From assembly GCF_026571515.1 (NCBI RefSeq), contig NW_026854550.1, positions 1-64,000 of the forward strand: 64,000 nt of DNA, read 5' to 3'. The notes below the pieces were generated by a model. That model was not told where the DNA came from. It saw nothing but the letters and a program-made list of their open reading frames with translations, and made no database searches. The first letter of the stretch is position 1, and every line of letters begins with the position of its first letter. Shown piece by piece: positions 1-60,880 of the stretch. This DNA is from Ruditapes philippinarum. Its lineage: Eukaryota. A program made the position numbers and the translations under genes.

Positions 1-3000
1 AAACAAGTTGTTATTAACTGAATTATAATTTTACGTATTTATGACTGTGCGATCTGGATCGAGTATCAAATCAGTAAGGCATGACCAATAAAGTCCCTAG
101 GATGATCCATAACAAAATTCGGACCATAAATATTTTGACAACTAACAAAAGTAATGTAATCTGATGTAATGTTATAACTCTAAAAAATGCAACCTGGTGA
201 TTTATGATATCACAGCCAAGTGCCGCTTGTATATACGACATATGTACCCTTTTAATTAATAAGTTACGGCCCAGTGGCGCTTATTTATCTATGAAATAAG
301 TTGCTGGGAAAAGGTCTTTAAAGAATAGATTTTAGAAGTTATCTTATTATCGTCTGTTGCGAATCTAAAATTATAAAAGTCAATGCCACATGGTTTTCGT
401 TCTTTCCGGAATATTTATAAAATTATATCCTTCACTGGTTCTTTGAAATATTTTTTATACGGCGTAATGAAAAAGAATCAGTAAGTATTGACAATATGCA
501 TTCTGTTATTGTTCTATTAAAGCTTGAAAAACAATCATTTAAAGACATTGGCAATCTTATTTTCAACACGGATTTATATTACTAATGTAATATAAATCCG
601 TGTTTTCAGGTTTGTCACAAATACGCCAGAATTTTCTAAATGACAGAAAATAACACAGAAAACTAGAAAATGGCCATTTAAATTTATAATAGGCAATTTC
701 GGTGTGTATAGGTGTTTGTAAAATATTAAAATTTGATTTAGTTACTAGCTTTTTATCCTGGCATTTGAGAAAATCTAGATCTAATAAAAAATATTCACTT
801 TGAAATTTCGCTGTTTCACTCCGTTGCGACATGTAAATTTATAAATCTGTGGTAATCTCAAACTTTGCTTTTGTATTTTTTTTCTATTGTCTTGATATTG
901 AATTTATGTATGCATGCCTTAATTTTTACATGTTATAATCATAATTGAACGATCAGTATTTACGCATTTAACTTTTCAATAAGCCAACTTTCTATGCGGC
1001 ATGCATAGTTTTATCCCCCATTTACGTCACATCCGGTAAGGGAAGTAACTCTTCACTGACTGTTATCGCTTAAATGAAAGGGTCTATAGGATGCCTTTTT
1101 TAAAAGTTAATATCTACATTTATAAAATTCACTCTATAAACAACGGTATAATAAAAAAAATATGCTTTAGAAATCTCTCTGCTTAATGTTACGACTTGTT
1201 AAACAAAACAATATCGGATAAAACAACATGGTCGCTCAACGGATAAGGTCAATTTCCTGGACAATCATTGGGTGAGGTCAACTCAGGTTAGCTTCAGTAT
1301 TTCAACATTTTAATTCAATGTAAAATTGATAAAATCAAGTTATGTCTATGCCATAGTTCGATTATTTAAAGTTACCTTGACCGAAAACTAAAATAATCTA
1401 GTTTGTTGATGAAAAAAAGAGTAGTAAAACCTTTGTATACATTTATCTAATAAATTGGCGGAAAATGTTTTCGTTTGTCACGACTTATTAAACGATGTCG
1501 TTATAAAAATACCCGGTCGGTCAAGGATAAGGTCAGCTACCCGGACAGTCATCGGGTGAGGTGAACTAAGGTCAGCTTTCTGATGAATTCAACGGGAAAG
1601 GTCACATTGGGATGATTTCAATTTTTAATAAATTTTAACAAGTACGTAAGTAACGACTTTAATTAATGAGGCTAGCACATTCGGTTTCCCGATTTTCCAT
1701 GTGGAGGTTTATCCTTCTTCTTCCAAAATAGTACCATCACAAATTGATTTTGAATTTTATTTTTGTCGAGTAATATTTATCTGTATAAATTCTAGTTTAT
1801 AAGTTAGTACTTTTAGCAGATCACATCTTTTTTTAGTAATTTCTTACAGCTGTGTTTAGATATTTACCTACTAATAAAAAATAAGAGCATAATGTTATAC
1901 AATAATTTAAGTATTGAATAGCTAAATTTAAAGGTAATACATATTTTATATAATTGTAATTGCGCGAATCTTTGTTATGCTTGTGGATATTTACATATAG
2001 AAGTTGTTTCATTTTATAAAAAATATGAGTTAATACACGATATTAACTTGAAATTTGTATTAATCAAAGAAGTCCCTTATTTAGGTACGAATACAAAAAC
2101 TTAAAACCATATTAAAATTAACAAAATGCTTTTTATAGTTTCAATTGTATATTAACTTTATGTTCAACACTTTAAATTTTATTTATTTATTTTATTTATT
2201 TATTTATTATTTTTGATAAATATTTATTGTTTTTGTAAAACGACCCTATTTCAATTGCTTCAAAGATAAACAAACAAAAATTGTCTACTCGATTTAGTTT
2301 CATTATTTATATTTAAACGACAACTTCCTCATATATTCGTAAATTATTAATTGCTCAATACTCATTGTTTTTGTAACATTATACTATTTCAATTGCACAA
2401 GGATAAACAAAAGAATTGTCTACTTGAATTAAGTTTCATTATTTTTATTTTTATGACAACTACCTCATATATTCGTAAATAAAAAACGTTAAATCATTCT
2501 TAGGTTTTTTTTTATGAGAACGACCTTTAAAATTTGTGATACTAACATTTCATATAAATTTACAAAGATGCGTAATAATTAATTGCAAGATACTGGTTTA
2601 TTAAAATAATTTTGATTTAAGCATTACTAAGATAAAGAAAAGAAAACAATATAAATCTATGTAATTAAAAAAAATGTAAAGGCATAAAAAATAAAAATTC
2701 TTTTGAATGTACAGGACTGTATACTATTTGTGTCTACAAAAATGCACTCTCAAAAAATCGTACATCACACCAATACTATTCAAGCTGGTAAAGTAATATG
2801 TTCAACTTGATACTTTTTAATTCATACTCTGCTTATCAAAAATTTTAAAAACCACAAAAAAAAACAACAAAAACAAGTTGTTATTAACTGAATTATAATT
2901 TTACGTATTTATGACTGTGCGATCTGGATCGAGTATCAAATCAGTAAGGCATGACCAATAAAGTCCCTAGGATGATCCATAACAAAATTCGGACCATAAA

Positions 3001-5443
3001 TATTTTGACAACTAACAAAAGTAATGTAATCTGATGTAATGTTATAACTCTAAAAAATGCACCCTGGTGATTTATGATATCACAGCCAAGTGCCGCTTGT
3101 ATATACGACATATGTACCCTTTTAATTAATAAGTTACGGCCCAGTGGCGCTTATTTATCTATGAAATAAGTTGCTGGGAAAAGGTCTTTAAAGAATAGAT
3201 TTTTAATATCAAAATTATCTTATTATCGTCTGTTGCGAATCTAAAATTATAAAAGTCAATGCCACATGGTTTTCGTTCTTTCCGGAATATTTATAAAATT
3301 ATATCCTTCACTGGTTCTTTGAAATATTTTTTATACGGCGTAATGAAAAAGAATCAGTAAGTATTGACAATATGCATTCTGTTATTGTTCTATTAAAGCT
3401 TGAAAAACAATCATTTAAAGACATTGGCAATCTTATTTTCAACACGGATTTATATTACTAATGTAATATAAATCCGTGTTTTCAGGTTTGTCACAAATAC
3501 GCCAGAATTTTCTAAATGACAGAAAATAACACAGAAAACTAGAAAATGGCCATTTAAATTTATAATAGGCAATTTCGGTGTGTATAGGTGTTTGTAAAAT
3601 ATTAAAATTTGATTTAGTTACTAGCTTTTTATCCTGGCATTTGAGAAAATCTAGATCTAATAAAAATATTCACTTTGAAATTTCGCTGTTTCACTCCGTT
3701 GCGACATGTAAATTTATAAATCTGTGGTAATCTCAAACTTTGCTTTTGTATTTTTTTTCTATTGTCTTGATATTGAATTTATGTATGCATGCCTTAATTT
3801 TTACATGTTATAATCATAATTGAACGATCAGTATTTACGCATTTAACTTTTCAATAAGCCAACTTTCTATGCGGCATGCATAGTTTTATCCCCCATTTAC
3901 GTCACATCCGGTAAGGGAAGTAACTCTTCACTGACTGTTATCGCTTAAATGAAAGGGTCTATAGGATGCCTTTTTTAAAAGTTAATATCTACATTTATAA
4001 AATTCACTCTATAAACAACGGTATAATAAAAAAATATGCTTTAGAAATCTCTCTGCTTAATGTTACGACTTGTTAAACAAAACAATATCGGATAAAACAA
4101 CATGGTCGCTCAACGGATAAGGTCAATTTCCTGGACAATCATTGGGTGAGGTCAACTCAGGTTAGCTTCAGTATTTCAACATTTTAATTCAATGTAAAAT
4201 TGATAAAATCAAGTTATGTCTATGCCATAGTTCGATTATTTAAAGTTACCTTGACCGAAAACTAAAATAATCTAGTTTGTTGATGAAAAAAAGAGTAGTA
4301 AAACCTTTGTATACATTTATCTAATAAATTGGCGGAAAATGTTTTCGTTTGTCACGACTTATTAAACGATGTCGTTATAAAAATACCCGGTCGGTCAAGG
4401 ATAAGGTCAGCTACCCGGACAGTCATCGGGTGAGGTGAACTAAGGTCAGCTTTCTGATGAATTCAACGGGAAAGGTCACATTGGGATGATTTCAATTTTT
4501 AATAAATTTTAACAAGTACGTAAGTAACGACTTTAATTAATGAGGCTAGCACATTCGGTTTCCCGATTTTCCATGTGGAGGTTTATCCTTCTTCTTCCAA
4601 AATAGTACCATCACAAATTGATTTTGAATTTTATTTTTGTCGAGTAATATTTATCTGTATAAATTCTAGTTTATAAGTTAGTACTTTTAGCAGATCACAT
4701 CTTTTTTTAGCAATTTCTTACAGCTGTGTTTAGATATTTACCTACTAATAAAAAATAAGAGCATAATGTTATACAATAATTTAAGTATTGAATAGCTAAA
4801 TTTAAAGGTAATACATATTTTATATAATTGTAATTGCGCGAATCTTTGTTATGCTTGTGGATATTTACATATAGAAGTTGTTTCATTTTATAAAAAATAT
4901 GAGTTAATACACGATATTAACTTGAAATTTGTATTAATCAAAGAATTCCCTTATTTAGGTACGAATACAAAAACTTAAAACCATATTAAAATTAACAAAA
5001 TGCTTTTTATAGTTTCAATTGTATATTAACTTTATGTTCAACACTTTAAATTTTATTTATTTATTTTATTTATTTATTTATTATTTTTGATAAATATTTA
5101 TTGTTTTTGTAAAACGACCCTTTTTCAATTGCTTCAAAGATAAACAAACAAAAATTGTCTACTCGATTTAGTTTCATTATTTATATTTAAACGACAACTT
5201 CCTCATATATTCGTAAATTATTAATTGCTCAATACTCATTGTTTTTGTAACATTATACTATTTCAATTGCACAAGGATAAACAAAAGAATTGTCTACTTG
5301 AATTAAGTTTCATTATTTTTATTTTTATGACAACTACCTCATATATTCGTAAATAAAAAACGTTAAATCATTCTTAGGTTTTTTTTATGAGAACGACCTT
5401 TAAAATTTGTGATACTAACATTTCATATAAATTTACAAAGATG
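1..5443. repeat. Tandem repeat, 2,870-bp unit (one full copy 1-2870, partial copy 2871-5443; may extend left of the window)
   Basis: Sequence at 1 (aaacaagttgttattaactg) recurs at 2871 and stays almost identical, with a few SNPs/short indels, until atttacaaagatg at ~5443. Each unit also holds a diverged ~140-bp internal duplication (~2224-2480). Confidence 0.97.
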
Positions 5444-5855
5444 TTATTAAGCATTAAATAAGAGCGTTGTTATTAATTACTGCAAATTGCTTTGTATATT
5501 TTCAATTTAATAATTATATGCTGTTGCTGTTGTTTTTTGTTTACAGTTCAGTTTTAAATAAAACATTTTGAAGAAGAAAGACTTTGTCTTATTTAAAGGA
5601 AAATAGTTTTTATCTTTATTTTTAACCCATATTTTGATAGGTTGGTCTCTACCTCGTCCGTAAAGGATGCGTAAAAGGTTAATCTTACGTTATATTAAAG
5701 TATTGTAAAGACAGACAGCTGACAACTAACATATTTAAATGATTAAGAAAGTCATTACTTTTGTTTAGTTTAATGTTTAAATGCTACAACATTATATTGC
5801 ATCATGCTGATCATGCCCTGCAGGGATGGCTGGTAATAACGGATCAGAATTGATT

Positions 5856-12649: not shown

Positions 12650-15600
12650 GAAGCAGAAGAAATAGTTTATTTCGGTAACTTATACATTTACAGTATCTCG
12701 TTACATACAATAATTACAAATATAATAATTATGTGGTTACATGACAAAAGCAAAGAAAAATATAACAAGAGGGCCATGATGGCCCTGAGGTCGCTCACCT
12801 GTATATAGCCCCCCCCCCAAAAAAAAAAAAAATGTTGCAGGGCCAATTTAACCCAAGGGCTTTTATTTGCACAAATCTTGGTAGACACCCATAAGAAGAT
12901 GTTTCATGCTAAACATCTAAGCTCTAGCTCATTGGGCTTTTTTAAAGAAGATTTTTTTAAAGTTTTTACTATACACATATAGTTAAAAACAATGACACCC
13001 CTGGGGCCGGGCCAGTTTTGACCCCAGGGCTTTTATTGAACAAACTTTGTAGACACTTACTAGAAGATGTTTCATGCTAAATATCTAAACTCTAGCTATT
13101 TGGGTTTTTTCAAAGAAGATTTTAAGTTTTTGCTATACACATATAAAGAAAATCAATGACCCCCGGGGCGGGGCCAATTTTGACCCCAGGTCTTTTATTT
13201 GAACACACTTTGTAGACACTCACTAAAAGATGTTTCATGCTTAATATCTTAACTCTAGCTATTTGGGTTTTTTCAGAGAAGGTATTTTAACTTTTTGCTA
13301 TACACATATAAGGAAAATCAATGACCCCCGGGGTGGTGCCAATTTTGACCCCAGGGCTTTTATTTGAAGAAACTTGGTAGACACCTATTAGAACATGTTT
13401 GATGGTAAATATCTTAGCCATAGCTCTTTGATTTCTTTAAAAGAAGATTTTTTAAGTTTTTACTATATGAATATAGGGAAAATCAATGACCCCCCCCCCC
13501 GGGGCGGGGCCAATTTTGACCCCAGGGCTTTTATTTGAACAAACTTGGTAGACACTTATTAGAACATGTTTCATGCTAAATATCTTAGCTCTAACTCTTT
13601 TGGATCTTTAAAAGAAGATTTTTTAAGTTTTTACTATATGCATATAGGGAAAATCAATGACCCCCCGGGGCGGGGCCAATTTTGACCCCAGGGCTTTAAT
13701 TTGAACAAACTTGGTAGACACCTATTTAGAACATGTTTTCATGCCTCAATATCTTAGCCATAGCTCTTTTGAGTTCTTTAAAAGAGATTTTTTTAAGTTT
13801 TTTACTATATGCATATAGGGAAAATCAATGACCCCCCGGGCGGGGCCAATTTTTGACCCCAGGGCTTTTATTTGAACAAACTTGGTAGACACCCATTTAG
13901 AACATGTTTCATGCTAAATATCTTAGCTCTAGCTCTTTGGGTTCTTTAAAAGAAGATTTTTTAAGTTTTTACTATATGCATATAGGGAAAAATCAATGAC
14001 CCCCCGGGGCGGGCCAATTTTTGACCCCCAGGACTTTTATTTGAACAAACTTGGTAAGACACTCACTAGAAAGATGTTTTCATGCCAAATATTCTAAGCT
14101 CTACCTCTTATGGTTTTTCGAAAAAGAAGATATTTAAAGTTTTTTCTTTCGGTTGCCATGGCAACCAGAGTTCTGCATGGAATTAAATTCTTTGAACAAT
14201 TTGTAAAGGTGACCACCAAAGGAAACATTTCCTGTGAAGTTTGGATGAAATTGGCTTTTAGTGGTTTATGAGGAGATGTCATTTAAAGTAAAAGTTTACG
14301 GACGGACGGACGGACGACGGACGGACGACGGACGGACGGACGCCGGACGAAAAGCGATCACAAAAGCTCACCCTGTCACTTTGTGACAGGTGAGCTAATA
14401 AGAAGTAATATAAATTTTTTTTAACTGATGACATTTTAACGGAGAACAGACAGCTGCAAATAAAGGAACAAAGAACATCACAATGTCATTATCATTCATA
14501 GAAATAAAAAGTTCCAGTAAGAAGAAAAACAACAAAAACAGAAAAGACGTGACAATAACAGCGTCAAAAGTAAGGTATTACATGTATCTTTTTAACGATA
14601 ATAAGGATAAAAAGTTGAACCAATTAACATTTCAAAATGTGATATTGAATTAACAACGGGTCAGTAACAATTCTTGTTCGCTTTTTATTAGCTACATCTA
14701 TATATTTTTCCTAAATTTACATTGTACATCTTTATTATCTGATTGTTAGTAAATCTACTAATTTATACATAGAAGGTCTAATATAGTAATAACGCTTGAT
14801 AAATCTTCTTCGAATATATTGATAACATGGACAAACTAAAATAAAATGATATTCATCTTCAATTTCTGGTAAGTTACATAATTGGCATAATCTTTCATTT
14901 CTTTGTGTTCTATTACGTCCGTATCTACCGGTTTCTTAAGTTATGAGCAGATATTCTAATTCTACAAATATTCATACGTATACCTTTACAATAAATATTT
15001 CTTAAATAAAGTTCCAAACAAAAGTCTTTTTTGATATAACTATACAAAGTGTTTAGTACGATATTGTTTTCTATGTCTGAATGCCATTTTTTGCCTAAAA
15101 CAATCAATAACTCTTTGCTTAAATTCAGATAAAAAGAAACTACTTTTGATATTTATTGGGTTGTCCCACACATAAGAAAAGCCAAATTCATTTAATATGG
15201 ATTTTACATTTTGAGCGCAATTATATTTACACCAGTTCAAACTATTGCTTACTGTATATCTATAAATTTCTTTCTATGATATATTATCCGTATTTGACAA
15301 GCTTAAGCCAAAATTTAATGATTTGTACGTATCTTTGATATGTTAAGGGGTATCTACCTAATTCGTCATACACTGCATTAGTTACTAGCACATTGTTTTA
15401 CTCCTAATATTGATTTTCAAACCTTAAGGTGTTACCCTTTCTATATTCTTTAGATTTTAGTAAAACCCCAAACCGGACATGCATAATTAAGTAATTGAGC
15501 CAACAACGGCATTCAACTAATTGTAGTGAAACACGAGGATTTAAATGAAATTTCTGTCTATCTTATTCAATAAAATGGCTCATAGCTTTTAAACCTTTTC

Positions 15601-22144: not shown

Positions 22145-22336
22145 ATGAGCCGCGTCATGACAAAACCAACATAATGGGTTTGCGACCAGCATAAATCCAG
22201 ACCAGATCCGCGCAGTCTGATCAGGATCCATGCTGTTCGCTATCAGTTTCTCTACTTGTAATAGAATTGGTAAGCGAACAGCATGGATCCTGATGGTCGC
22301 AAACCCATTATGTTGGTTTTGTCATGACGCAGCTCA
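22145..22336. mobile_element. MITE with long terminal inverted repeats (intronic in gene 2)
   Basis: atgagccgcgtcatgacaaaaccaacataatgggtttgcgacca ... tggtcgcaaacccattatgttggttttgtcatgacgcagctca; same family at 56064-56300 and a fragment at 61817-61840. Confidence 0.85.
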
Positions 22337-25039: not shown

Positions 25040-25390
25040 CGGATTAAGTTTGTACATGAGGGATAATGAAATAGTGTAACATCCCTCAAGCCCACAATCA
25101 CCGGAAGTGCTACCCAATTTTCAACACTTAAACACGCTGGAATCAATGGTACCGAAGGACCAGAAAAATATAACAACGATGAAGTGAATGAAGTACGGGG
25201 CAACTTTTTACAGCTGCCACACGCCACTTGACACCTGTTATTGTGAAGTATAAAAATTTGGGGGGGGGGGGGCATTATCCCTCGAAAAGCATTAATCACA
25301 AAACAAATTTAAACTTTTAAAATTTGAAAAAACGGTTTGTTTTAAGTTTGTATATGGGGGGGGGGAAAATAGACTTGCAAATTAGCGGGG
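25040..25390 (-). repeat. Structured repeat family A, diverged head-to-tail copy (~1.2 units)
   Basis: Reverse-complement match to 38341-38645; a second unit restarts at atccctcgaaaagcatt (~25277). Confidence 0.75.
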
Positions 25391-26414
25391 GATGCATTTT
25401 TTAAATTAGTTTTTTGGCCAAAAATAAGGGTCATTTTAATAGAAAAAAATTTTTTAAAATTAAACAAAAATCAATTAAAATTTTAGGGGAGGAAAATATT
25501 TTTATCAAAAATTTACTTTTCATGCAGATCTTTTAATAAAAATTTACGGGGGGTTGTTTAAATTGTTAAATTGTACCCTTTACGTTCAGGTTTGGTAGGT
25601 TTTTTTAAACAGTTTTGGTTCAAAAATTCATTTTTTGCGGATCAGAAAAGAATGTCTTTGAAGGGCTGGGGTCAGACTTTTGAGCTTTAAAACTTGTCAT
25701 GACAATTTTCCCTTTCCATGATACCGTAAAATTTCCCTTTTTTGCCTGGAGATCTTTTTTTTAAAACCCGGGGGAATTGGTGAACTCAATATCCGTACGG
25801 AGGGGCCTTTAAAGGGCATATTAGGTACAAGAGGGGGGATTTTTTTTAAATAAATGCCCTGAGGTCAGCTTTGCTTGTAAATTATAAACATTTTTGGGCC
25901 CTTCCCAATTTAGTATAGGAATTTTCAGCATTCAGGAGAGATAAAGAATTTGGGTTGTTTTTAAATTTTGGGGGGGGTAATGTTTTTTGGCAATTTTTTT
26001 AAAGGGGGTTACTAGCAGTGCGGGTTTAGGTTTGTATATTAAATTTTACTATTTTTTCCCAATAAGATTTAAAATTTTTATAAAAATGGGGTGGGGATGG
26101 GTCATTATATACAAAAGTAAATACTAATTGTTTAAAAATCCCGTTGTATATAGAAAAAATGAAAATTTTACATTTATCTTTTTGGCCACTTGACTCTTTT
26201 ACTTTTTTTGGGAACAAAACTTATTTTTTATGAATTCTGGTGAACTAAATTATGGTTATGAAAAGTAAAGTTAAAAATATTAAATGTTTGTTTCATTTTC
26301 ACTTTCAATGAATTCTATTAGGAAACAGTGTACACAAAACCTATCGTTATTTTCACATAATATGTACAAATCACTTATGATCCATTAGTTTAAATACAAT
26401 GTATATTGTTTTAT

Positions 26415-27880: not shown

Positions 27881-28723
27881 CTAAAATATCACCATTGTTG
27901 ACTGCTCTGTTTAATAATTCTGTCAATCTGTCCCCTTACATGTTGCATTTTTTTTTGCATTAAATTCCTGTTTTTTGTCAGATTCACCAGGTATTTAAAT
28001 TTTAAAACTAGGTGGTCTTCTTCTATTCATGTTCAATAATTCCCAATGATCAACCTTGTATACGTGTATAATATTCCTTTTTATTTTTAGTCACAAAGAG
28101 TTGAAGTCTGTCCTTTTTGTGTTTGGGGTCCGCCTGGGCTCCTTGCCGTTGGTTCTTGTTGCTGGGTCATATGGGGGTTGCGTTCATTGAACGCCGCCTT
28201 TCCTTGTTGATCTTGTTTTTCATATTTGATAGGGATTTGGTATATATCTTAGGTAATTAATTATTTGGGGGAGTCCTTCTGTATCTAGGGTGAGGAAGAC
28301 GGGAAATATATTAATTTCAATCAAATTATGGCATTGTCAAAATTCAAGGTATTATACCTTAGATGTGTTTCAATTGTAATATAGACTGTGTACATGAACA
28401 GAGTCGAATTATATACTAAATAATAATGCATTTACTTCACTTTTTCTTTAGATTACATACTTTACCTATTACACTAGATAGACTATTCCAATTTTGTGTT
28501 AGAACTGTCCAATACCTCACCACTTGATCATAAAGTAATAACAGTGATTTTATCTATAGTGCAAATGAGAAACACATGTTTCATGCTGTGTACTTGTGCA
28601 GTGTGTGTCAATAATCAGTTTTCAGAGAAAGATCATTCTGATATATATCTAAATTATAACATTTACATGTATATATAAATTATTGGTGTGCTAATAGTGA
28701 TTTGGACTTGGATACTTTGTTCA

Positions 28724-36661: not shown

Positions 36662-37231
36662 TTCCCTGTCATTTGATGTGCTATATTATCTGAAAAGGTT
36701 GCCTAGGCAACGAGAACGCGCCTATGGAATAAATATTGATCTTCTACCTGGGACTTCGATGTCATGACATTCCTATAGTCAACAAATAAGCTCTTCTCGT
36801 TATCAAATATATTTCCCTGACATTTTCATTAAAGTATTAGTTAGTTTTGCCTGTTTGGTTGGCTTGTTGGGGTTTGAGTCAAATCAGCACTGTAATGTTT
36901 AATCAGCGAATGACCAGCTTTACTGGTGGCTAAAGATCTTGGGTGCCCCTCCGTGCAATATTCAGCCATGGGCGGGAAACTGAACTTATCGTCACTGACC
37001 TTAGTAAAAAACAAGAAAAGCTTTCGATATCACATTTGAGTGTAATTCAAATCGCTTTCCCTGTCATTTGATGTGCTATATTATCTGAAAAGGTTGCCTA
37101 GGCAACGAGAACGCGCCTATGGAATAAATATGATCTTCTACCTGGGACTTCGATGTCATGACATTCCTATAGTCAACAAATTAGTCATAAATAAGCAAAT
37201 ATATTTCCCTGACATTTTCATTGAAGTATTA
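36662..37231. repeat. ~175-bp direct repeats (36662-36839, 37057-37231) flanking a duplicated SINE 3' segment
   Basis: ttccctgtcatttgatgtgct...aagtatta occurs twice; the intervening 36840-37056 matches 38329-38340 plus 38646-38853. Confidence 0.9.
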
Positions 37232-38340
37232 ACAAATAAGGAAAAAATAATAAAAACGACAAACAAGTTATTAATACGTACATATATATGTACTTTTATT
37301 TGATTCTGGTGAGATAACGAATCAATATATGGCTAATAATGTTTTATATGTTTATCGCATCTATATACGCAGGAAAAAATAATTATTTTAATGAAAGGAA
37401 TACCAGAAAAAGAAACGGGAATTGTCAAAATGAATTTATATTAGGCTCCATACGTGTGACAGCATAAAATTACCAGCCTATATCACACCTTTAACGTTAC
37501 GGCCTCTGTTGCAATGAATCATTATTTCGTTTTCGACTAATTTCTTCATTCTTTTTTCAAAGACTTACAACAGCCTATTATTAAGTATATGAAAGTATGT
37601 TTTGAAAAGAAAAGTCATTTTCCAGCAGTTTTCACATGGCATTGACAGTGGCGGTATAATTCCATTCAAACTGTTCAGCAAATATATTCGAAGCTTGCTT
37701 TAAAATATTTTAACTCTGAAGTTCGCCCACATTTCATTAAACTTAAATGCCTAGATAAATACATATTTTCTCTTACAATTTTTAGAAAATAAGAAACATA
37801 GGGTCATGATATATTGTTACATGCTTAAGATGCGTCATGCGTGAAGTCGACACCATGTCCAAATGCATGTACTCAGATATGCGCAAATATTACATATAAA
37901 ATCACCAGGTATAGCACTCACATAACAAAACATAAATATTATATAAGCACATGAATACCTTGACAGAAAGTGTATATCTCCCCAACTGTAGATTTCAGTG
38001 CTTTCACCAACGTATCCACTGGAAATTTATCATTTACAACGTCGTCGGGTCCATCTATCCAACCCATGTTTTCTTCTCTTTCACTTAACCATCCTTATGC
38101 TTTGTAAGACAATATATCTGTTTAAAGCTCATTTCAAAATATAATTATCCCCCTTTGTATTCAGCGTCATCTCATTATATGATGTACATTACCTGAGGAA
38201 ACCATCGATTTCAGAAAGTAGTCCAGCGCATTAGAATTCGCTGCGCGGAAATGATGCGCCCTCGAGCCGATATTAATAGTGGTTTTCCGTTTATATATTT
38301 AACACATTCAGCCCACCCCTTTTTATCAGTTAGTTTTGCC

Positions 38341-38645
38341 ACTTTGTTTCCAGAATTTTGTACTTCACAACAGCAGGTGTCAAGTGCTGTGTGGCAGCCG
38401 TAAAAAGTTGCACCGTACTTCACTTCAGTGTTGTTATATTTTCTGGTCCTTCGGGATCATTGATACCAACACTATAAAGTGTTGGGAATTGAGTACCGCT
38501 CAAGCCGGTGCTAGGGGGCGTGAGGGATGTTGCACTTATTCATTATCCCTCATGTACAGACTCAATCAAACCGAGTCTGCAATTCTTGTGTTATTTTGTT
38601 GTGATTAATGCTTCCGAGGGATCACTTTGTTTCCAGAATTTTGCC
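38341..38645 (+). ncRNA. Structured repeat family A: 283-nt unit with ~21-nt terminal redundancy, putative structured mobile RNA
   Basis: Several hairpins including cUUCGg (tggtccttcgggatca) and a pseudoknot core shared with family B; cactttgtttccagaattttg at both ends; ttttgcc duplicated on the flanks. Confidence 0.55.
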
Positions 38646-38900
38646 TGTTTGGTTGACTTGTTGGGGTTTGAGTCAAATCAGCACTGTAGTGTTCAATCAG
38701 CAAAATGTCCAGCTTTACTGGTGGCTAAAGATCTTGGATGCCCCTCCGTGCAATATTCAGCCATGGGCGGGAAACTGAAGTTATCGTCACTGATCTAAGT
38801 AAACAACAAGAACAGCTTTCGATATCACATTTGAGAGTAATTCAAATCGCTTTCACGCACACCGTGGTGCGAAGTCATCACCCTAACGAGACTGCCTCGA
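38646..38900 (-). mobile_element. Degenerate SINE (bivalve-type core)
   Basis: Minus strand gctgaatattgcacggaggggcatccaagatctttagccaccagtaaagctgga...aaccccaacaagtcaaccaaac resembles the common mollusc SINE core and tail. Confidence 0.65.
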
Positions 38901-39274: not shown

Positions 39275-39653
39275 GGTTTATGAAATAGATAAATACAAAA
39301 TCCCTAAAGAAAGCCCAACACGGCAAAATTGAAAACGTTTCAGGCTCGGTTTGATTGAGCCTGTTCATGGACGGTACTGGAAAGTGCAAGTTACCGTCCA
39401 CGCCCCCTAGCACCGGCTTAAGCAGAATTCAACATTGAAACATGAAATAGTAAAATTTTGAATTTAGAAACATCCGCAGATGTGTTCATACGGCGGTTAT
39501 CATGGAACCTTCAATGTGACACTTCCGTGCCATTCCATGAAAAGCGGCGTATGGTCCCCAAGTAATAAAAAGCGTGTGCCCTAAACGAGAAAACAATGGG
39601 CGGAACTAAATAAAATGGAATATTGAAAGGGGATCATAGGTTATGAAGCCTGC
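39275..39653 (-). repeat. Structured repeat family B, copy 1 (5'-truncated)
   Basis: High similarity to 54645-55160 and to the reverse complement of 59517-60030; long stems (catacg..catggaa / ttccatg..cgtatg). Confidence 0.9.
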
Positions 39654-39859
39654 GTTCATGAAACCGTTCTTTACTGCGTCCTGTCTATCTGTCTATGAGT
39701 CCCCTCAACATTCTAAGAGAGTAATGTCCTTCTACAAAAATGTGCACACGAACCATTCTGCGCAAGTAATGATGACGTCTAAATAGACTGGAACCTTCCC
39801 TGTTGATTAGCTGCAAATTTAGGTGGCGCGTGCACGCTCCGTGGGAAATGAGAGGTATA

Positions 39860-48006: not shown

Positions 48007-51000
48007 GTACATGTAAAAATAACAATCGTTGTTCCAATATTAATTCTTCTAATTCCCCTTATAAATGACATATTTTGACAGCCATACAAACCATCACATA
48101 CTGCAAGTGCAGGGAAATTACTATAATAATTTATATTTAATTTAGCAAATGTCGTTGTTGACAAAATGATTAGAGCATGTTGACGAAAGGCTTATTGTTA
48201 ATATCTTCCTGTCAAATACGATATATTGATGGGTTAGCACACAAAGAGTTCATATGTCAAGGTTGTAAGGCCATAAACTATAAAACCTGTTATTGTTCAT
48301 TGGACACTTGTTTTAAACAAATCCTTGATTAATCTTGCGTGCAACCTGAGATGTTCGTAAATGTACAAAAAACATTCATCGGACAGAATATTACTATATT
48401 AATTAAGATGCGGATTTATAGTCGTAATCGTACTAAAACGAACTTACCGGACAATAATTATATTTCTTTACAATATCCTGTAAACAAAGTTTAATTTGTC
48501 AATAATTGTATTGCTAGAAACAAAAAATAACTTTTTTAAGGGATTCAACATTCACATATTTATTGATCGATATGTGTAAAACGTTTGTACAAGACATTAA
48601 AATTGAATGTTTAGGCAATGCACAGGTTTTGAACTATGGACATAATGCAAACACCTTATTCGATATGATGATATTGATTAGTCAAACTAATAACGATAAA
48701 TTCATCAAAACTGTTTTATAATTATGCCATTGTATCATATTGTTATAATGTTATATTATTATAAGTAATAACAAGGAAAGTTTAGTTTAAAGATAAGGTA
48801 TGGCAAAAGTTTTTTCTCATTGATAGAAATGTACAAGAACTTACAAGCTAAATAAAAACATGTTGTGTATATAAAGAAAGTGGTTATGAAATTGCATCAC
48901 TTCTTTCAATCTGTGTTTTGAATACAAAATTAAACATCTGATTCTTACATGTTGAAATACGAAAGACTTTAGACATATTTTCTTTTTTCCTGGGAATAAT
49001 TATTGTTATTATTGTTTTTCCGTTTGTTTTGCTCTTTATTTGGTAATGAATTTTATCTTTGCAAAAGAAGTATTTAAAAAAAACAACAAATGTGTAACAT
49101 TGAAGCTGTACCACTGTTATATTCAATTAATACATAATGATAATTCATTTGTTTTAAATCATATTTGTTTTTAAGTATTTAAAAAGATTGAACAAAAAAC
49201 CTAAGTATCAATTAATCTAAATTATAATATATAAAACATGTTATTAAATAACTAATTATAATTATTCATTAATCTAAGTTTTTTAAATTAATGTGAAACA
49301 AAAATTCTTGTTGTCGAATTCGGTTGAAATGTTCGTAAGTTTTCTGTATTTGTATTATATTTGTGAATTTATGTTAAATTTATAATAGTAATTATTAGTT
49401 GTATTATGAAAAAAATAAAAATTACGAGCAGTCATGTGATTATTTATTTTTTCAGAATTTATGTGAAAATGATGATGAATAATTGAGAAAATTTACAGAA
49501 TTTACAATGTCAGATATGAAAGTGAATATTCTACCTGCAATAAAGTCTGTATAACAATTTCATTTACAAAACTGAATTGAACGGTGTAGACTGCGACAAA
49601 CTATCAAATTGTAATCTAATCTTTTATTAAGTTCCGCTGTTTGTTTAAAATTTCAGTGCCTAAAACGACATACATCCAGATGAGAACAATAGTTCTAAAA
49701 CTGCATACCTTAGAATAATGCCCTTAAATTTATGTACAAATATTCACAAAATATGATGAACAAGATCAACAAGGGAAGGCGGCGTTCAAATACATAGGCG
49801 TTGAAGCCTGTGTAATCTTGAAAAAGTAATTTGCAAAATATAATATTATTACTTTTGGCATAAAGTTCTGCTCAAGTTTAAACGGAGTAAGATACATTTC
49901 TGTATTTGTTTGCCTTTTCCGTGTATACCAAAGGATTTAGCTTTGAAAATAGATGTATGCATTGTATCTTGTAATGTGACAAACATTGTTGCCCTTAGTT
50001 TGTTATAAGTCGTCAACGACAGGTTTTCCTTTACCCTTCATTATCCATTTTACATCTCCTTGCCCTACTTGTCACTTTCAGCCTTTTGGTTCTTTGCATG
50101 CTGTGTTCCGTGAATGCCATGCCGCCTGTCCTTGTTGATCTTTTTTTTATATTTGGTAAAATCACTAAATTTGTGTACTTTTAAATTTATAAGTTTTTTT
50201 TTATAAAAAATACAAAAATTAGTAATCATGTTGCCTTAAATGATAGCTCAGCTAATCATCAAAGGTGTTATAGAATATTGAACGTTTAGCTTTTATTGGA
50301 TGAAAAAACTTTCCATGATATGTATGCTTTTAATGATTTGGTTGTTCTTTATGTCATAACTGAAACCATCCATAACTGGTAAAGCCCGTCTTTCTGTTTT
50401 ATGTCCAGAATATCAACAAGGAAAATTTGTGTTGAAATGAAATAGGAAATAAAAGGAAAATACTTGTATTACCGGATAATAAAACGTCTCGACTTCAAAT
50501 TAATATATTGCCAAAGGTGACATTAAATTATAATTTTTTTGTTGGTTTATAACCCATTATTTATTTTGATTTTCATTGGGTGGAATTAAGTTCCCCGCCT
50601 TATAGATGATGATTTAGTATTAACAAATATCTTTTCAATTTCGATTACGAAAGAAAATATGTAAGCACACACTTTCTCTAAAAAGACAGGTCTGTGTCAC
50701 AGGCATACATTTCTTCCTTACAACGGTCTGACTTGACGGGGTTGAACCAATTTAAGGCAATTTTTAAATGTGATTATCAGCAATACACATCCAATCCGAT
50801 CGTCAGAATGATATTAACCGGTTTTAAATGTAAAATAAATTGTAAAGAGGGTATTTTTTTATATTGTGTTAGATTTGTGATACATATAATTTTGAGAATA
50901 TTAGATGCAATAACATCATGTTATGAGCTTCAACCTCAATAATAAGATTTTAACAGGTGAACCCTGTGTATCATAATCTTATCTAATTGCTCTTTAATTG

Positions 51001-54644: not shown

Positions 54645-55160
54645 AAAGTAAAGTATAGAAGCAAATAAAGATTCCCTTTAGAAAGCCCAACACGGCAAAA
54701 TTGAAAATGTTGTAGTCTTGGTTTGATTCAGCTGTTCATAAACGGTACTGGTAAGTGCAAGTTACCGTCCACGCCCCCAGGCACCGGCTTTAGCAGAATT
54801 CAACATTTAACATGATCTGGTAGAATTTGGAATTTTGAAACATCCGCAGATATGTTCAAGTGGCGGTCATTATGGAACCTTCAATACGGCACGTTAGTGC
54901 AATTCCATGAAAAGCGGCATATGGTCCCCAAGTAAAAAAAATGCACGTGCCCTAAACGAGAAAACAATGGGCGGAACTGAATAAAATGGAATTTTGAAAG
55001 GGGATCAGAGATTATGCAGCCTACATATCACAAATTTGACGTCAAAAACAAATTTAAAAAGCAGGTCACATGTCCTAAGGGTGAATCAACAGTATTTAAA
55101 TACTGGAACTACTCAACAAGAAAATAGCCGAGTAGAAAGAACTAAAATACCACAGGCACA
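54645..55160 (-). repeat. Structured repeat family B, copy 2
   Basis: Matches 39275-39653 and extends ~140 bp further in common with 59517-59660. Confidence 0.85.
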
Positions 55161-55271
55161 ACAATAATAATTATCATAATGATCTTGTTATGATTTTAAA
55201 ACAGACTTTTTTTAAGTATTGTAAAATTACAATGTTGGTTATATTTGCAGTTCATTAATTATACTAGCTTC

Positions 55272-56063: not shown

Positions 56064-56300
56064 ATGAGCCGCGTCACGACAAAACCAACATAATGGATTT
56101 GCGACCAGCATGGATCCAGACCAGCCTGCGCATCCGCGCAGTCTGATCAGTATCCATGTTGTTCGCTTACAAATCCTATAGTTTGTAGAGAAACTGATAG
56201 CAAACAGCATGGATCCTGATCGGACTGCGCAGATGCGCAGGCAGGTCTGGATCCATGCTGATCGCAAATGCTTTATGTTGGTTTTGTCATGACGCGGCTA
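56064..56300. mobile_element. MITE, same family as 22145-22336
   Basis: Long inverted repeats atgagccgcgtcacgacaaaaccaacat ... atgttggttttgtcatgacgcggct. Confidence 0.85.
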
Positions 56301-59203: not shown

Positions 59204-59516
59204 AGGTCATTGATACAAGAAAATGAAGAAAGAAATAAAATTTATAAACTAAAACTTAAGAAAACATTTCAATTTGATATTCATATCTCAATAAATTGAA
59301 ATATAGAAGTATTATATAGAAAGTACAATAAGAACCACATTTCTGTGAATCAAAATAAGTTCAGTTTTAGTGAGACTGTTCAATTTTACCTGCATTAAAC
59401 GACTGTCGAATTGGCGAAAACCCTATCAGCTGTACGCCATTTGTAAAACTTTATTCAATGATGTTATATTTTCGATCCATAAAGATCGTACAGCACGACA
59501 CTATTGTTGTGTATAC

Positions 59517-60030
59517 ATGTTATGTGGTACTTTTAGTTTCACCTATTCGGCCATTTACAACTTTGGTGGTTTCAGTATTCCTACTGGAATACTGTATAAT
59601 CACCCTTAAGATATGTTGCCTGCTTTTTAAATTTGTCTTTTGACGTTTAATCTGTGATATGCAGGCTTCATAACCGCAGATCCCCTTTCAAAATTCCATT
59701 TTATTTAGTTCTGCCCATTGTTTTTCGTTGAGGGCAAACGCATTCTTTTACTTGGGGACCATACGCCGCTTTTCGTGGAATGGCACTACTGTGTCACATT
59801 GAAGGTTCCATGATAACCGTTGTATGAACATTTCTGTGGATGTTTCTAAATTCAAAATTTCGCAATTTTCGTGTTAAATGTTGAATTCTACTTAAGCCAG
59901 TGCTAGGGGGTGTGGACGGTAAATTGCACTTTACAGTACCGTCCATGAACAGGCTCAATCAATCCAGGCCTGCAACATTTTCAATTTTGTTGTGTTGGAC
60001 TTTCTGTAGGGATTCTGTTTTACTCTATTT
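59517..60030 (+). repeat. Structured repeat family B, copy 3
   Basis: Reverse complement of 54645-55160 and 39275-39653; core aagccagtgctagggggtgtggacggt...ttgcactt...accgtccatg. Confidence 0.88.
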
Positions 60031-60807
60031 TGCAGAACAGTTACTGTTGTAAATAGCTTTGATGTGATTCATAAATAATAGTCCGTTTTTACTTTATAAT
60101 GTAATACATATATAGCAAAAGTGGATTATTCTATTGTATGCAACTTTTCCTTAAATCCAGAGGAACTGCATTGCGGGGTCATTGTGAAATGATTATTTGC
60201 CAAATTTTTTACCCTTTACTCTTTCTGTAAAATTGATATACTAATAAAGAATGTTTGTCTGTGCCAAAAGAATGTGTTATAATGTTAAAAAAATCTGTAT
60301 ATTTCAGCCAAAATGATCTCAAAACAAAATCCAGTATCACAGAATCACCATCAAGACTTCTAACAGGGCACCACATGAAACAAAAAAAAACAGGAGATGA
60401 CACAATTGCAAAGCAAACAATTAAGATATTCTTCTGTCTACAACTTCTACTACCTTTCAATAGATGTTTGAAATAAATCAGAACTGTTTTTGTAAAGTGA
60501 TTTCTTGATATTGACAAGATTTTGAAATTACCAAATTCTCACGGAAAGCATTGTTTGTTCTTATTGCAGATCATTAGTCAACCTGTTATTGAATTACATT
60601 TTTTTGATATTTGCAACTTGATAGTTTGCAAAAAGATAACAAAATTGTCCACATTTTTAGATGACAGCCACTTATATCTGCGAGTTATTTCAAAAAAGAA
60701 ATTATCAAACTGATCGATCTAAGAGTGGAATAACAATTTCAAAATGTCAGCAGACTTTCTAAGCAGGCGCTATGTGACAGACAGAGTGTCTTGCTGATAT
60801 TACACTG

Positions 60808-60880
60808 TTTCATTGTCCCTCATGTACAGACTCAATATAACCGAATCTCCAATTATTTTATGTGAATGCTTCCGAGGGAT
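60808..60880 (+). repeat. Structured repeat family A, 3' fragment
   Basis: ttcattgtccctcatgtacagactcaat...gaatgcttccgagggat matches 38539-38622 and stops exactly at agggat. Confidence 0.8.

What the first reader, a model, noticed from the sequence alone, without database searches (positions are those of the whole stretch)
38341..38645. Family A: 283-nt hairpin-rich unit with terminal redundancy and a head-to-tail copy, suggesting a circular RNA intermediate
Seen: relative to the empty site at ~36839, the insert is one 283-nt unit plus a ~21-nt repeat of its own start (cactttgtttccagaattttg), flanked by duplicated ttttgcc. The 25.0-25.4 kb copy starts elsewhere in the unit and runs through the junction into a second unit. 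Hairpins cover most of it: cacaacagca/tgctgtgtg, gcagc/gttgc, tggtcc-TTCG-ggatca, ccaacact/agtgttgg, accg/cggt. The cUUCGg loop and G-U pairs favour the + strand as RNA. Known: metazoan retrozymes are 170-400-nt units copied from circRNA, but they carry hammerheads, and I find no CUGANGA/GAAA core here. Inference: a retrozyme-like element using a different or no known ribozyme.
Basis: partly seen in the sequence, partly recalled or inferred. Interest (0 to 1): 0.75.

Follow-up and report, generated by a model that had tools for sequence, protein, structure and literature searches.

The report
Clam biv-TRIM is a Naiad hitchhiker
This abundant 283-base clam repeat is the already published element biv-TRIM, but its one fixed end, ragged other end and front end shared with a Penelope-like jumping gene (Naiad) show that it is not an LTR-type element; it is likely copied by the Naiad enzyme from a folded, possibly circular RNA, although no known self-cutting RNA motif and no abundant circle was found.

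Summary
The unit is real: 283 nt, thousands of copies, head-to-tail arrays. The 21-nt "terminal redundancy" is not a fixed end. Copies share one T-rich 3' end (82 of 103 and 78 of 100 arrays) and break off anywhere at the 5' side, so this copy is 1.07 units long. The family is biv-TRIM (PMC6934838), published on the other strand as an LTR-type TRIM with no partner; copy ends ignore its proposed borders. Its first ~100 nt match the start of an active Naiad Penelope-like element of this genome. A sister family (630 nt) shares that start, and all three form mosaic insertions. In all three, different sequences keep one stem that pairs the 3' tail with the segment behind the shared start. Units within an array often share one haplotype. 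A second, covarying four-helix fold matches no ribozyme tested. Best reading: a non-autonomous Naiad passenger copied from RNA that runs through the junction, likely a circle (about even odds against a linear multimer plus local amplification). Cleavage and circles are not shown; RNA-seq levels were low.

The parts
38340..38359 (+).
   Evidence: 5' starts spread over the unit in 103 + 100 arrays
38360..38642 (+). one complete 283-nt unit of family A (= biv-TRIM, read on the other strand and in another permutation)
   Evidence: 98.6% to the majority unit; published primer and inner-domain motifs match on the minus strand
38365..38461 (+). module 1: shared with the first ~100 nt of the autonomous Naiad unit and of family B; likely enzyme-recognition and/or promoter element
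   Evidence: local alignment score 96 against 35.8 +/- 4.7, 0 of 200 shuffles; weak consensus fold, -0.86 kcal/mol
38440..38471 (+).
38485..38586 (+). module 2: four-helix junction conserved in families A, B, C/E and in metagenome contigs L167-L169, absent from the Naiad; function unknown, candidate processing or ribozyme element
   Evidence: 10 of 31 pairs change on both sides, 84% of cells paired; z -5.4; no Rfam match
38594..38624 (+). 3' arm of the long-range closing stem
   Evidence: cognate duplex -33.4 kcal/mol against -12.6 to -16.2 for non-cognate arms
38625..38642 (+). T-rich fixed 3' end; inferred start point of reverse transcription
   Evidence: 82 of 103 and 78 of 100 arrays end in the last 6 nt
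38334..38340 (+). 7-nt target duplication, left copy (the right copy 38639-38645 overlaps the element's T-run)
   Evidence: not a family-wide feature
38643..38854 (.). host repeat interrupted by the insertion; uninterrupted paralogue at 36846-37059
   Evidence: 94% identity
25042..25360 (-). older family A copy that crosses the junction
60796..60880 (+). decayed family A fragment (77%)
39283..39655 (-). 5'-truncated family B copy (positions 257-629 of the 630-nt sister unit)
   Evidence: 98%
54663..55168 (-). older family B copy
   Evidence: 84%
59450..60031 (+). older family B copy
   Evidence: 86%
28108..28227 (+). 3' tip (120 nt) of the autonomous Naiad
   Evidence: 95%
49748..49789 (-). 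3' tip (42 nt) of the autonomous Naiad
   Evidence: 95%

Best explanation
Family A is a protein-free tandem retroelement (published as biv-TRIM) with one fixed 3' end and a 5' start shared with a Naiad Penelope-like element, and it is likely inserted by the Naiad reverse transcriptase/endonuclease from an RNA that runs through the head-to-tail junction, most likely a unit-length circle. Shown: fixed T-rich 3' end, scattered 5' ends, inverted 5' pieces, exact junctions, single-haplotype arrays, the shared 5' module, mosaic insertions with Naiad and family B. Predicted from folding and compensatory change: a stem that pairs the 3' tail with the segment behind module 1, so that the T-run and module 1 sit together in one structure in A, B and the Naiad. 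Inferred: the enzyme binds this structure, primes on a nicked T/A-rich target at the T-run, copies backwards through the junction for 0.2 to 10 units until it stalls or jumps to a B or Naiad RNA. Inferred and weakest: module 2 cuts or directs cutting of the transcript so that it can close into a circle, standing in for the twister-like fold of the Naiad. My odds: Naiad passenger 0.85; circle, given that, a little over one half.
For: Ends: 82 of 103 arrays (first, biased sample) and 78 of 100 arrays (70 loci taken in contig order) end in the last 6 nt; 5' starts cover the whole unit; 40 of 100 cross a junction. Partner: A 6-102 aligns to the start of the 4266-nt Naiad unit (0 of 200 shuffles), B 1-87 is 92% identical to it; the partner has GIY-YIG before RT (E 9e-13 and 4e-20 against a canonical PLE), a DKA motif, in-frame TGA codons and a SECIS match (E 1.5e-4, just under the gathering score). 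Joint insertion: 12 distinct A-Naiad, 19 A-B and 31 B-Naiad direct joints; A or B in 11 of 30 Naiad loci (10 within 35 nt) against 3 of 30 canonical-PLE loci (Fisher p 0.03). Stem: cognate duplexes -33, -28, -38, -20 kcal/mol (A, B, Naiad, L167) against -9 to -22 non-cognate, each below the minimum of 300 shuffles. Continuous template: 90 of 96 and 47 of 58 junctions have exactly the same spacing by pattern, 2 have one extra T, the rest are substitution-damaged; no strong pile-up of 5' ends. One template per array: within-array distance 0.010 against 0.023, and 0.024 against 0.042, 0 of 1000 permutations each; the L270 haplotype occurs 3 times in the assembly, all in that array; the four units of L235 share a deletion plus two substitutions found together nowhere else among 7 matches.
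Against: No ribozyme found in A or B: hammerhead, twister and HDV-like descriptors negative on both strands (the HDV pattern had no positive control), Rfam negative. RNA is scarce: per base read, A is about 60-90 times rarer in two RNA-seq runs than in a DNA-like library, with 5 and 11 junction reads and no start or end pile-up; the libraries are unstranded and may lose structured circles. A 9-nt deletion in the most conserved stretch of module 2 is carried by whole arrays (L235, L283), so that stretch looks dispensable in cis, or arrays grew after insertion. Some arrays are mixed (L010, L097, L002), and one shared variant tested is a 5% subfamily variant, not private (154 against 2731 matches). 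The 3' tails of A and B are not more similar to the Naiad tail than chance (140 and 11 of 200 shuffles), nor is module 2 (23 and 29 of 200). 5' starts are not perfectly even (chi-square p 0.013; 6 of 100 in the first 5 nt against 1.8 expected). The junction count excludes joints with more than 4 extra bases, which my array definition splits. Naiad 5' ends do not pile up at the predicted twister cut (2 of 99 within 5 nt).
Confidence: 0.5

Rival explanations
1. Same Naiad partner, but no circle and no ribozyme: read-through multimers or terminally redundant linear RNA are copied, the panhandle stem lets the enzyme hop back onto the same RNA, and arrays may grow later by unequal crossing-over.
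For: All end, partner and stem data fit equally; the stem also forms in the linear monomer; low RNA level and few junction reads; module 2 deletion tolerated; private haplotypes need no missing source if arrays grew in place. In Chlamys-3 the start site lies in the pLTR and the promoter at the pLTR/body boundary (PMC8557442, section 10), where module 1 sits.
Against: A defined RNA 5' end should leave a pile-up of 5' ends; the one candidate (positions 250-253) failed to replicate (0 of 40). Module 2 is kept with compensatory changes across families and a second animal, which needs a function.
Confidence: 0.33
2. A is moved by another retroelement (a canonical hammerhead-bearing PLE or a LINE), and the Naiad link reflects ancestry and shared T-rich targets only.
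For: Canonical PLEs are present and active; 3' tails are not significantly Naiad-like; only one Naiad family and 50 GIY-YIG loci were examined; B also inserts into canonical PLEs (L090).
Against: None of the 50 canonical-PLE loci carries either module as its own sequence; the closing stem is shared in structure with the Naiad; joints with Naiad are frequent.
Confidence: 0.08
3. Family A is a dispersed satellite or DNA-level rolling-circle repeat; RNA plays no part.
For: Tandem arrays with internal homogeneity; low RNA level.
Against: One fixed end with random truncation at the other, inversions, strand-specific folding with G-U pairs and compensatory changes, and homology to a retroelement start.
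Confidence: 0.04
4. It is a TRIM, a miniature LTR retrotransposon, as published.
For: Dimers can be drawn as repeat-inner-repeat; a purine run lies before the published repeat start (PMC6934838).
Against: Copy ends ignore the published borders (1 of 203 arrays at one border, 6 of 203 at the other, below the chance rate); the fixed end lies inside the 'terminal repeat'; no regular TSD; the authors found no primer-binding site and no partner; the 'PPT' is part of module 1 on the antisense strand and is also in the Naiad.
Confidence: 0.03
5. It is an ordinary hammerhead retrozyme with a missed or permuted core.
For: Size, tandem layout and PLE dependence fit non-LTR retrozymes (PMC7229834; bioRxiv 10.64898/2026.07.22.740005).
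Against: The sense strand of A has neither core strand in any order; near-matches on the antisense strand are not kept in B or L167; the scan found the control hammerhead in L083.
Confidence: 0.02

Closest known systems
biv-TRIM (Satovic et al. 2019, PMC6934838; parts 1-3 of 5 of the text and passages read; supplement searched without hits; deposited sequences not seen)
   Same: Same family: period 279-298 bp there, 283 here; one primer matches 19 of 20 nt, the inner-domain motif 13 of 14, the other primer 14 of its first 16 (16 of 16 in B and in the Naiad), in the published order; tandem arrays and mostly fragments; found in many bivalves.
   Different: Described on the opposite strand and permutation, filed as an LTR-type element, no partner, no mechanism. 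Here the ends, the partner and the fold place it with Penelope-like elements.
Non-autonomous Chlamys elements such as MRC1, and Naiad PLEs (Craig et al. 2021, PMC8557442; sections 6 and 10, passages, supplement parts 1 and 23)
   Same: 5' truncation, partial and multi-copy head-to-tail insertions, inverted 5' pieces, no canonical hammerhead, partner with N-terminal GIY-YIG.
   Different: MRC1-type elements resemble their partner at the 3' end; A and B share the 5' start of the Naiad body and only the pairing pattern of the 3' tail. The passages read describe no non-autonomous Naiad.
Animal non-LTR retrozymes (Cervera and de la Pena 2020, PMC7229834, passages; Li et al. bioRxiv 10.64898/2026.07.22.740005, parts 1-3 of 5)
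   Same: Short tandem non-coding units, PLE-dependent, likely rolling template.
   Different: Defined by a type I hammerhead in each unit and by abundant circular RNA; A has no hammerhead and no abundant RNA in the two runs examined.
Twister ribozyme, type P5 (blocks from Table 1 of PMC8501958, section 17; P1 dispensable per PMC5408937 abstract and PMC11662667 passages)
   Same: The Naiad partner's 3' UTR has all printed blocks in P5 order with a compensatory change in the T2 pseudoknot; module 2 sits at the corresponding place in A and B and also has a CCGG-centred linker.
   Different: Module 2 lacks the L1 strands and the L4 sequence; the descriptor does not match it and it is not similar to the Naiad motif by sequence.

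Membership tests
biv-TRIM sequence family | published primer sites, inner-domain motif, purine run and period | tested here: met
TRIM / LTR retrotransposon | insertions begin and end at terminal-repeat borders | tested here: not met
   1 of 203 and 6 of 203 array ends at the two borders
TRIM / LTR retrotransposon | regular short TSD | tested here: not met
   duplications of 6 nt or more in 5 of 34 arrays against 3.2 by chance; 5-nt matches were low-complexity
TRIM / LTR retrotransposon | tRNA primer-binding site | not tested
   the describing paper could not identify one
Non-autonomous Penelope-like element | fixed 3' end with variable 5' truncation | tested here: met
Non-autonomous Penelope-like element | partial or multi-copy tandems and inverted 5' pieces | tested here: met
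   40 of 100 arrays cross a junction; inverted A, B or Naiad piece at the 5' end in 17 of 103 and 6 of 100 neighbour counts
Non-autonomous Penelope-like element | terminal sequence shared with an autonomous PLE | tested here: met
   5' module shared (0 of 200 shuffles); 3' tail not shared by sequence
Non-autonomous Penelope-like element | mobilised in trans by the PLE protein | not testable with these tools
   inferred from mosaics and shared structure
Naiad (partner element) | GIY-YIG before RT, DKA and CxC motifs, in-frame UGA with SECIS in clam families | tested here: met
   Pfam itself gave no family; no tree was built; resemblance to Naiad_Mmer and Naiad_Scon judged by eye
Non-LTR retrozyme | type I hammerhead in each unit | tested here: not met
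Non-LTR retrozyme | abundant circular monomer RNA | tested here: inconclusive
   low depth and 5 and 11 junction reads in two unstranded RNA-seq runs of unknown selection
Non-LTR retrozyme | self-cleavage in vitro | not testable with these tools
   bench assay needed
Twister ribozyme (module 2 of A) | L1 strands, L4 loop, T1 and T2 pseudoknots | tested here: not met
   descriptor negative on both strands of A and B
Twister-sister, pistol, hatchet, hairpin, HDV-like (module 2 of A) | match to the family model | tested here: inconclusive
   no Rfam match at E up to 10 and 5, but Rfam also missed the Naiad twister-like fold; the HDV pattern was recalled and uncontrolled

The most novel reading that the evidence does not exclude
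Module 2 is a self-cleaving ribozyme of an undescribed class. It replaces the Naiad's twister in two passenger families, cuts read-through transcripts into 283-nt monomers that close into circles, and the Naiad enzyme starts inside the circle at a stem-framed T-run. biv-TRIM would then be a hammerhead-free retrozyme spread across bivalves and a minimal substrate that explains how Penelope-like elements make their pseudo-LTRs.
Probability: 0.15. Interest if true: 0.88.

Novelty: new variant of a known kind. Interest (0 to 1): 0.5.

Why it matters
How Penelope-like enzymes choose their RNA, where they start, and why they leave partial tandems is unresolved. Here three elements of 283, 630 and 4266 nt share only a ~100-nt module just downstream of the start point and a stem kept by compensatory change. 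That narrows the likely cis-signal to about 170 nt and gives a small, high-copy, recently active substrate for a direct assay. It also corrects the class of a published element that was cited as one of the few animal TRIMs, and points to a conserved RNA fold with no known family.

Tried and rejected
Canonical C-terminal-endonuclease PLEs as partner: 30 + 20 GIY-YIG loci carry classic hammerhead cores in the families inspected and hold A or B only as insertions. A Pfam RVT_1 search listed 150 places that I did not follow. A preferred 5' end at unit positions 250-253 (5 of 52 multi-unit arrays in the first sample) was written down as a test and failed (0 of 40). A pile-up of Naiad 5' ends at the predicted twister cut was not seen. 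The variant shared by 8 of 10 units in L091 is not private; a second variant has 43 matches. Homology of module 2 to the Naiad twister region looked plausible by eye but was not above chance. A second Naiad family carrying module 2 was not found in 285 loci (one 45%-identical inverted piece in L174 was not followed). Published Naiad consensus files gave no meaningful hit for six A motifs (file cut when stored, line breaks can hide matches). Viral contigs gave two 20-nt matches without context and no twister match. No RNA holder was listed by the run search. Runs X21 and X22 are filed as RNA but behave as restriction-ligated DNA libraries, so they were used for copy number only. Laying RNA runs on the Naiad junction gave too little depth to show a cut or a start. 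By-eye resemblances of the modules to pistol, hatchet, hairpin, twister-sister and SECIS came from recall and did not hold across families. My notebook count of 14 of 30 Naiad loci was by eye; the computed count is 11 of 30.

Full report
Observation. The insert at 38340-38645 is one 283-nt unit preceded by 20-21 nt of the previous unit's end, with a 7-nt duplication whose right copy overlaps the element's T-run; a paralogous uninterrupted site at 36846-37059 supports the boundaries. The 25 kb copy crosses the junction on the minus strand. The window lies in a 1.4-Gb animal assembly. One 27-mer of the unit has 2731 exact matches and one variant of it 154; read depth in a DNA-like library suggests about 14,000 units, a rough figure because that library is cut at GATC sites.

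Anatomy of the family. In a first sample of 103 arrays (loci picked with A, B, C, GIY-YIG and Naiad queries, hence biased) 82 end in the last 6 nt of the unit, while 5' starts cover the whole unit. In 70 further loci, the first 100 places listed merged by locus (two overlap one locus of the first sample), 78 of 100 arrays end there and 40 cross a junction. Arrays hold up to 10 units. Junction spacing is constant: 90 of 96 and 47 of 58 by pattern, 2 with one extra T, the others damaged by substitutions and read by eye; joints with more than 4 extra bases are split by my definition and not counted. Duplications of 6 nt or more are no commoner than chance (5 of 34 against 3.2). This pattern is that of target-primed reverse transcription (established knowledge) and matches the description of Penelope-like insertions in PMC8557442, section 6.

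It is published. An earlier scan note pointed to biv-TRIM. I tested it: the paper's primer, inner-domain motif and purine run lie on the minus strand of A in the published order, and its period (202-218 plus 77-80 bp) brackets 283. The paper reports 27,489 loci and arrays up to 58 repeats in the Manila clam draft, no primer-binding site and no partner. Array ends do not fall on its repeat borders (1 of 203 and 6 of 203), so the sequence family is biv-TRIM but the class TRIM fails.

The partner. Canonical PLEs of this genome carry hammerhead cores and share neither module. A flank of locus L002 read like the clam Naiads in the supplement of PMC8557442. It belongs to a young family (4485 first-look candidates, best 150 at 94-100%) with a 4266-nt unit, GIY-YIG before RT, a DKA motif, in-frame TGA codons and a SECIS-like hairpin (Pfam gave no family). 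That unit begins with module 1: A 6-102 aligns with score 96 against 35.8 +/- 4.7 (0 of 200 shuffles), and the 630-nt sister family B is 92% identical over 87 nt. The 3' tails and module 2 are not above chance against the Naiad. The three elements form mosaics: 12 A-Naiad, 19 A-B and 31 B-Naiad direct joints, several with A's 3' end fused to a truncated Naiad. A or B lies in 11 of 30 Naiad loci against 3 of 30 canonical-PLE loci (p 0.03). Template switching by one enzyme is my inference; nested insertion into T-rich targets explains part of it.

Structure. The + strand folds far better than shuffles as a circle (z -7.1; - strand -2.3). In A, B, the Naiad and a relative on metagenome contig L167, the last ~50 nt pair with the segment just behind module 1, although the sequences differ; cognate duplexes are -33, -28, -38 and -20 kcal/mol, non-cognate -9 to -22, and each beats 300 shuffles. 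The segments were chosen after I saw the folds. Across a junction it frames the T-run and module 1 in one local structure of about 170 nt; in a linear monomer it would be a panhandle. Module 1 itself is conserved in sequence more than in fold, so it may be a promoter as well as, or instead of, an enzyme-binding site. Module 2 is a four-helix junction: on 10 hand-picked rows (of 28 clusters, plus three contigs) 84% of cells pair and 10 of 31 pairs change on both sides, mostly in helices 1 and 3; helix 2 shows none and pairs in 67%. The rows are related, so the shuffle counts are not probabilities.

Ribozyme search. A and B match no hammerhead, twister or HDV-like descriptor on either strand; the hammerhead control was found. 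The sense strand of A has neither hammerhead core strand in any order. Rfam finds nothing, but it also misses the Naiad's twister-like fold. That fold has every block of Table 1 in PMC8501958 in P5 order, with a compensatory T2 change and P2 changes against the two published clam Naiads (by eye). My descriptor, written after seeing it, hit 1 of 500 shuffles of the 900-nt tail and gave 5 rows on the whole plus strand whose places I did not list. Its predicted cut lies 436 nt before the Naiad's fixed end, yet Naiad copies run through it without a pile-up (2 of 99): if it cuts, the template must be rejoined. That is an argument for circles in this system, but an indirect one.

One template per array. 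Units in an array are closer than units between arrays in both samples (0 of 1000 permutations). One haplotype is confined to its three-unit array; another, with a 9-nt deletion in module 2, to its four-unit array, although the deletion alone recurs at three other loci on other backgrounds. A third shared variant is a 5% subfamily variant, and some arrays are mixed. So arrays often derive from one unit, as rolling copying predicts, but a homogeneous source array or later local amplification gives the same picture, and the deletion argues that this part of module 2 is not always needed.

RNA. Two RNA-seq runs hold A at about 0.11 and 0.16 depth per million letters against 9.9 in the DNA-like library, with 5 and 11 junction reads and no defined starts or ends. 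They are unstranded, of unknown selection, and genomic tandems would give the same joints. They show no abundant RNA; they cannot exclude a circle.

Verdict. A works like a non-LTR retrozyme or MRC1-type passenger of a Penelope-like element; it is not a retrozyme by definition (no hammerhead) and not a TRIM. Naiad dependence is well supported (0.85); the circle is a little better than even given that; a new ribozyme is possible but unproven (0.15). In the library searched, 'biv-TRIM' occurs in two papers, the second seen as a listing only; a search for Naiad, non-autonomous, bivalve and retrotransposon together found none; searches found no description of this link in the listings. Subscription journals, Repbase and Dfam were not searched, and the supplements of the bioRxiv preprint are closed. 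Other papers were seen as passages only (PMC7229834, PMC10085705, PMC6765202, PMC11662667, PMC6154101, PMC11620745) or in their first part (PMC5408937). Several earlier scan notes reach the same reading; they are not independent support, and I reached the Naiad link and the twister before seeing them (against 80, 113).

Noticed in passing
L204:5632-5729 (Naiad 3' UTR; also L177, L171-L199): Type-P5 twister-like fold with a palindromic linker in place of a normal P1, in a clade reported to lack canonical hammerheads; the same blocks are in the published Naiad_Mmer and Naiad_Scon consensus tails. Missed by Rfam.
   Followed up: partly
window 39283-39655, 54663-55168, 59450-60031; L033, L047, L208: Family B, a 630-nt tandem sister element with both modules and the same end pattern (75 of 106 arrays end in the last 6 nt).
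   Followed up: yes
L107/L108, L114-L116, L124; L090:2935-3060: Rarer or older subfamilies with variant module 2 (C, E) and a variant module 1 (D).
   Followed up: partly
L167, L168, L169 (metagenome contigs): A relative of about 78-84% identity in another animal's sequence, with both modules and its own compensated closing stem; one copy sits downstream of a glutathione S-transferase-like reading frame (label recalled, untested).
   Followed up: partly
runs X21, X22: Filed as RNA-seq but reads break and rejoin at GATC sites like a restriction-ligated DNA library.
   Followed up: partly
window 28108-28227, 49748-49789; L204:6064-6118: Short Naiad 3' tips of 40-120 nt are very common; many start at the outer border of the closing stem.
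   Followed up: partly
L200 (minus strand), 5' region of the Naiad: A pyrimidine tract and acceptor-like site about 215 nt into the unit suggest an intron in the 5' leader, as in Penelope; not tested.
   Followed up: no
L062, L064, L070, L083, L147-L149: At least four canonical PLE families with minimal hammerhead cores in their tails; two have a second reading frame after the endonuclease; one targets (TA)n.
   Followed up: partly
L283: Three-unit array in which the first and third units share three variants that the middle unit lacks (X-Y-X), as a dimeric template would give; single case.
   Followed up: no
window 12840-14144: Array of about 8 copies of a ~170-nt unit, of the kind found inside Helitron-like elements of bivalves (label recalled).
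   Followed up: no
window 1-5700: Near-identical tandem duplication with a period of about 2874 nt; may be real or an assembly artefact.
   Followed up: no
window 22146-22336 and 56065-56299: Two related fold-back elements with long inverted arms.
   Followed up: no
window 25260-26000: Homopolymer-rich stretch that looks like uncorrected long-read error; it garbles the junction of the 25 kb copy.
   Followed up: no
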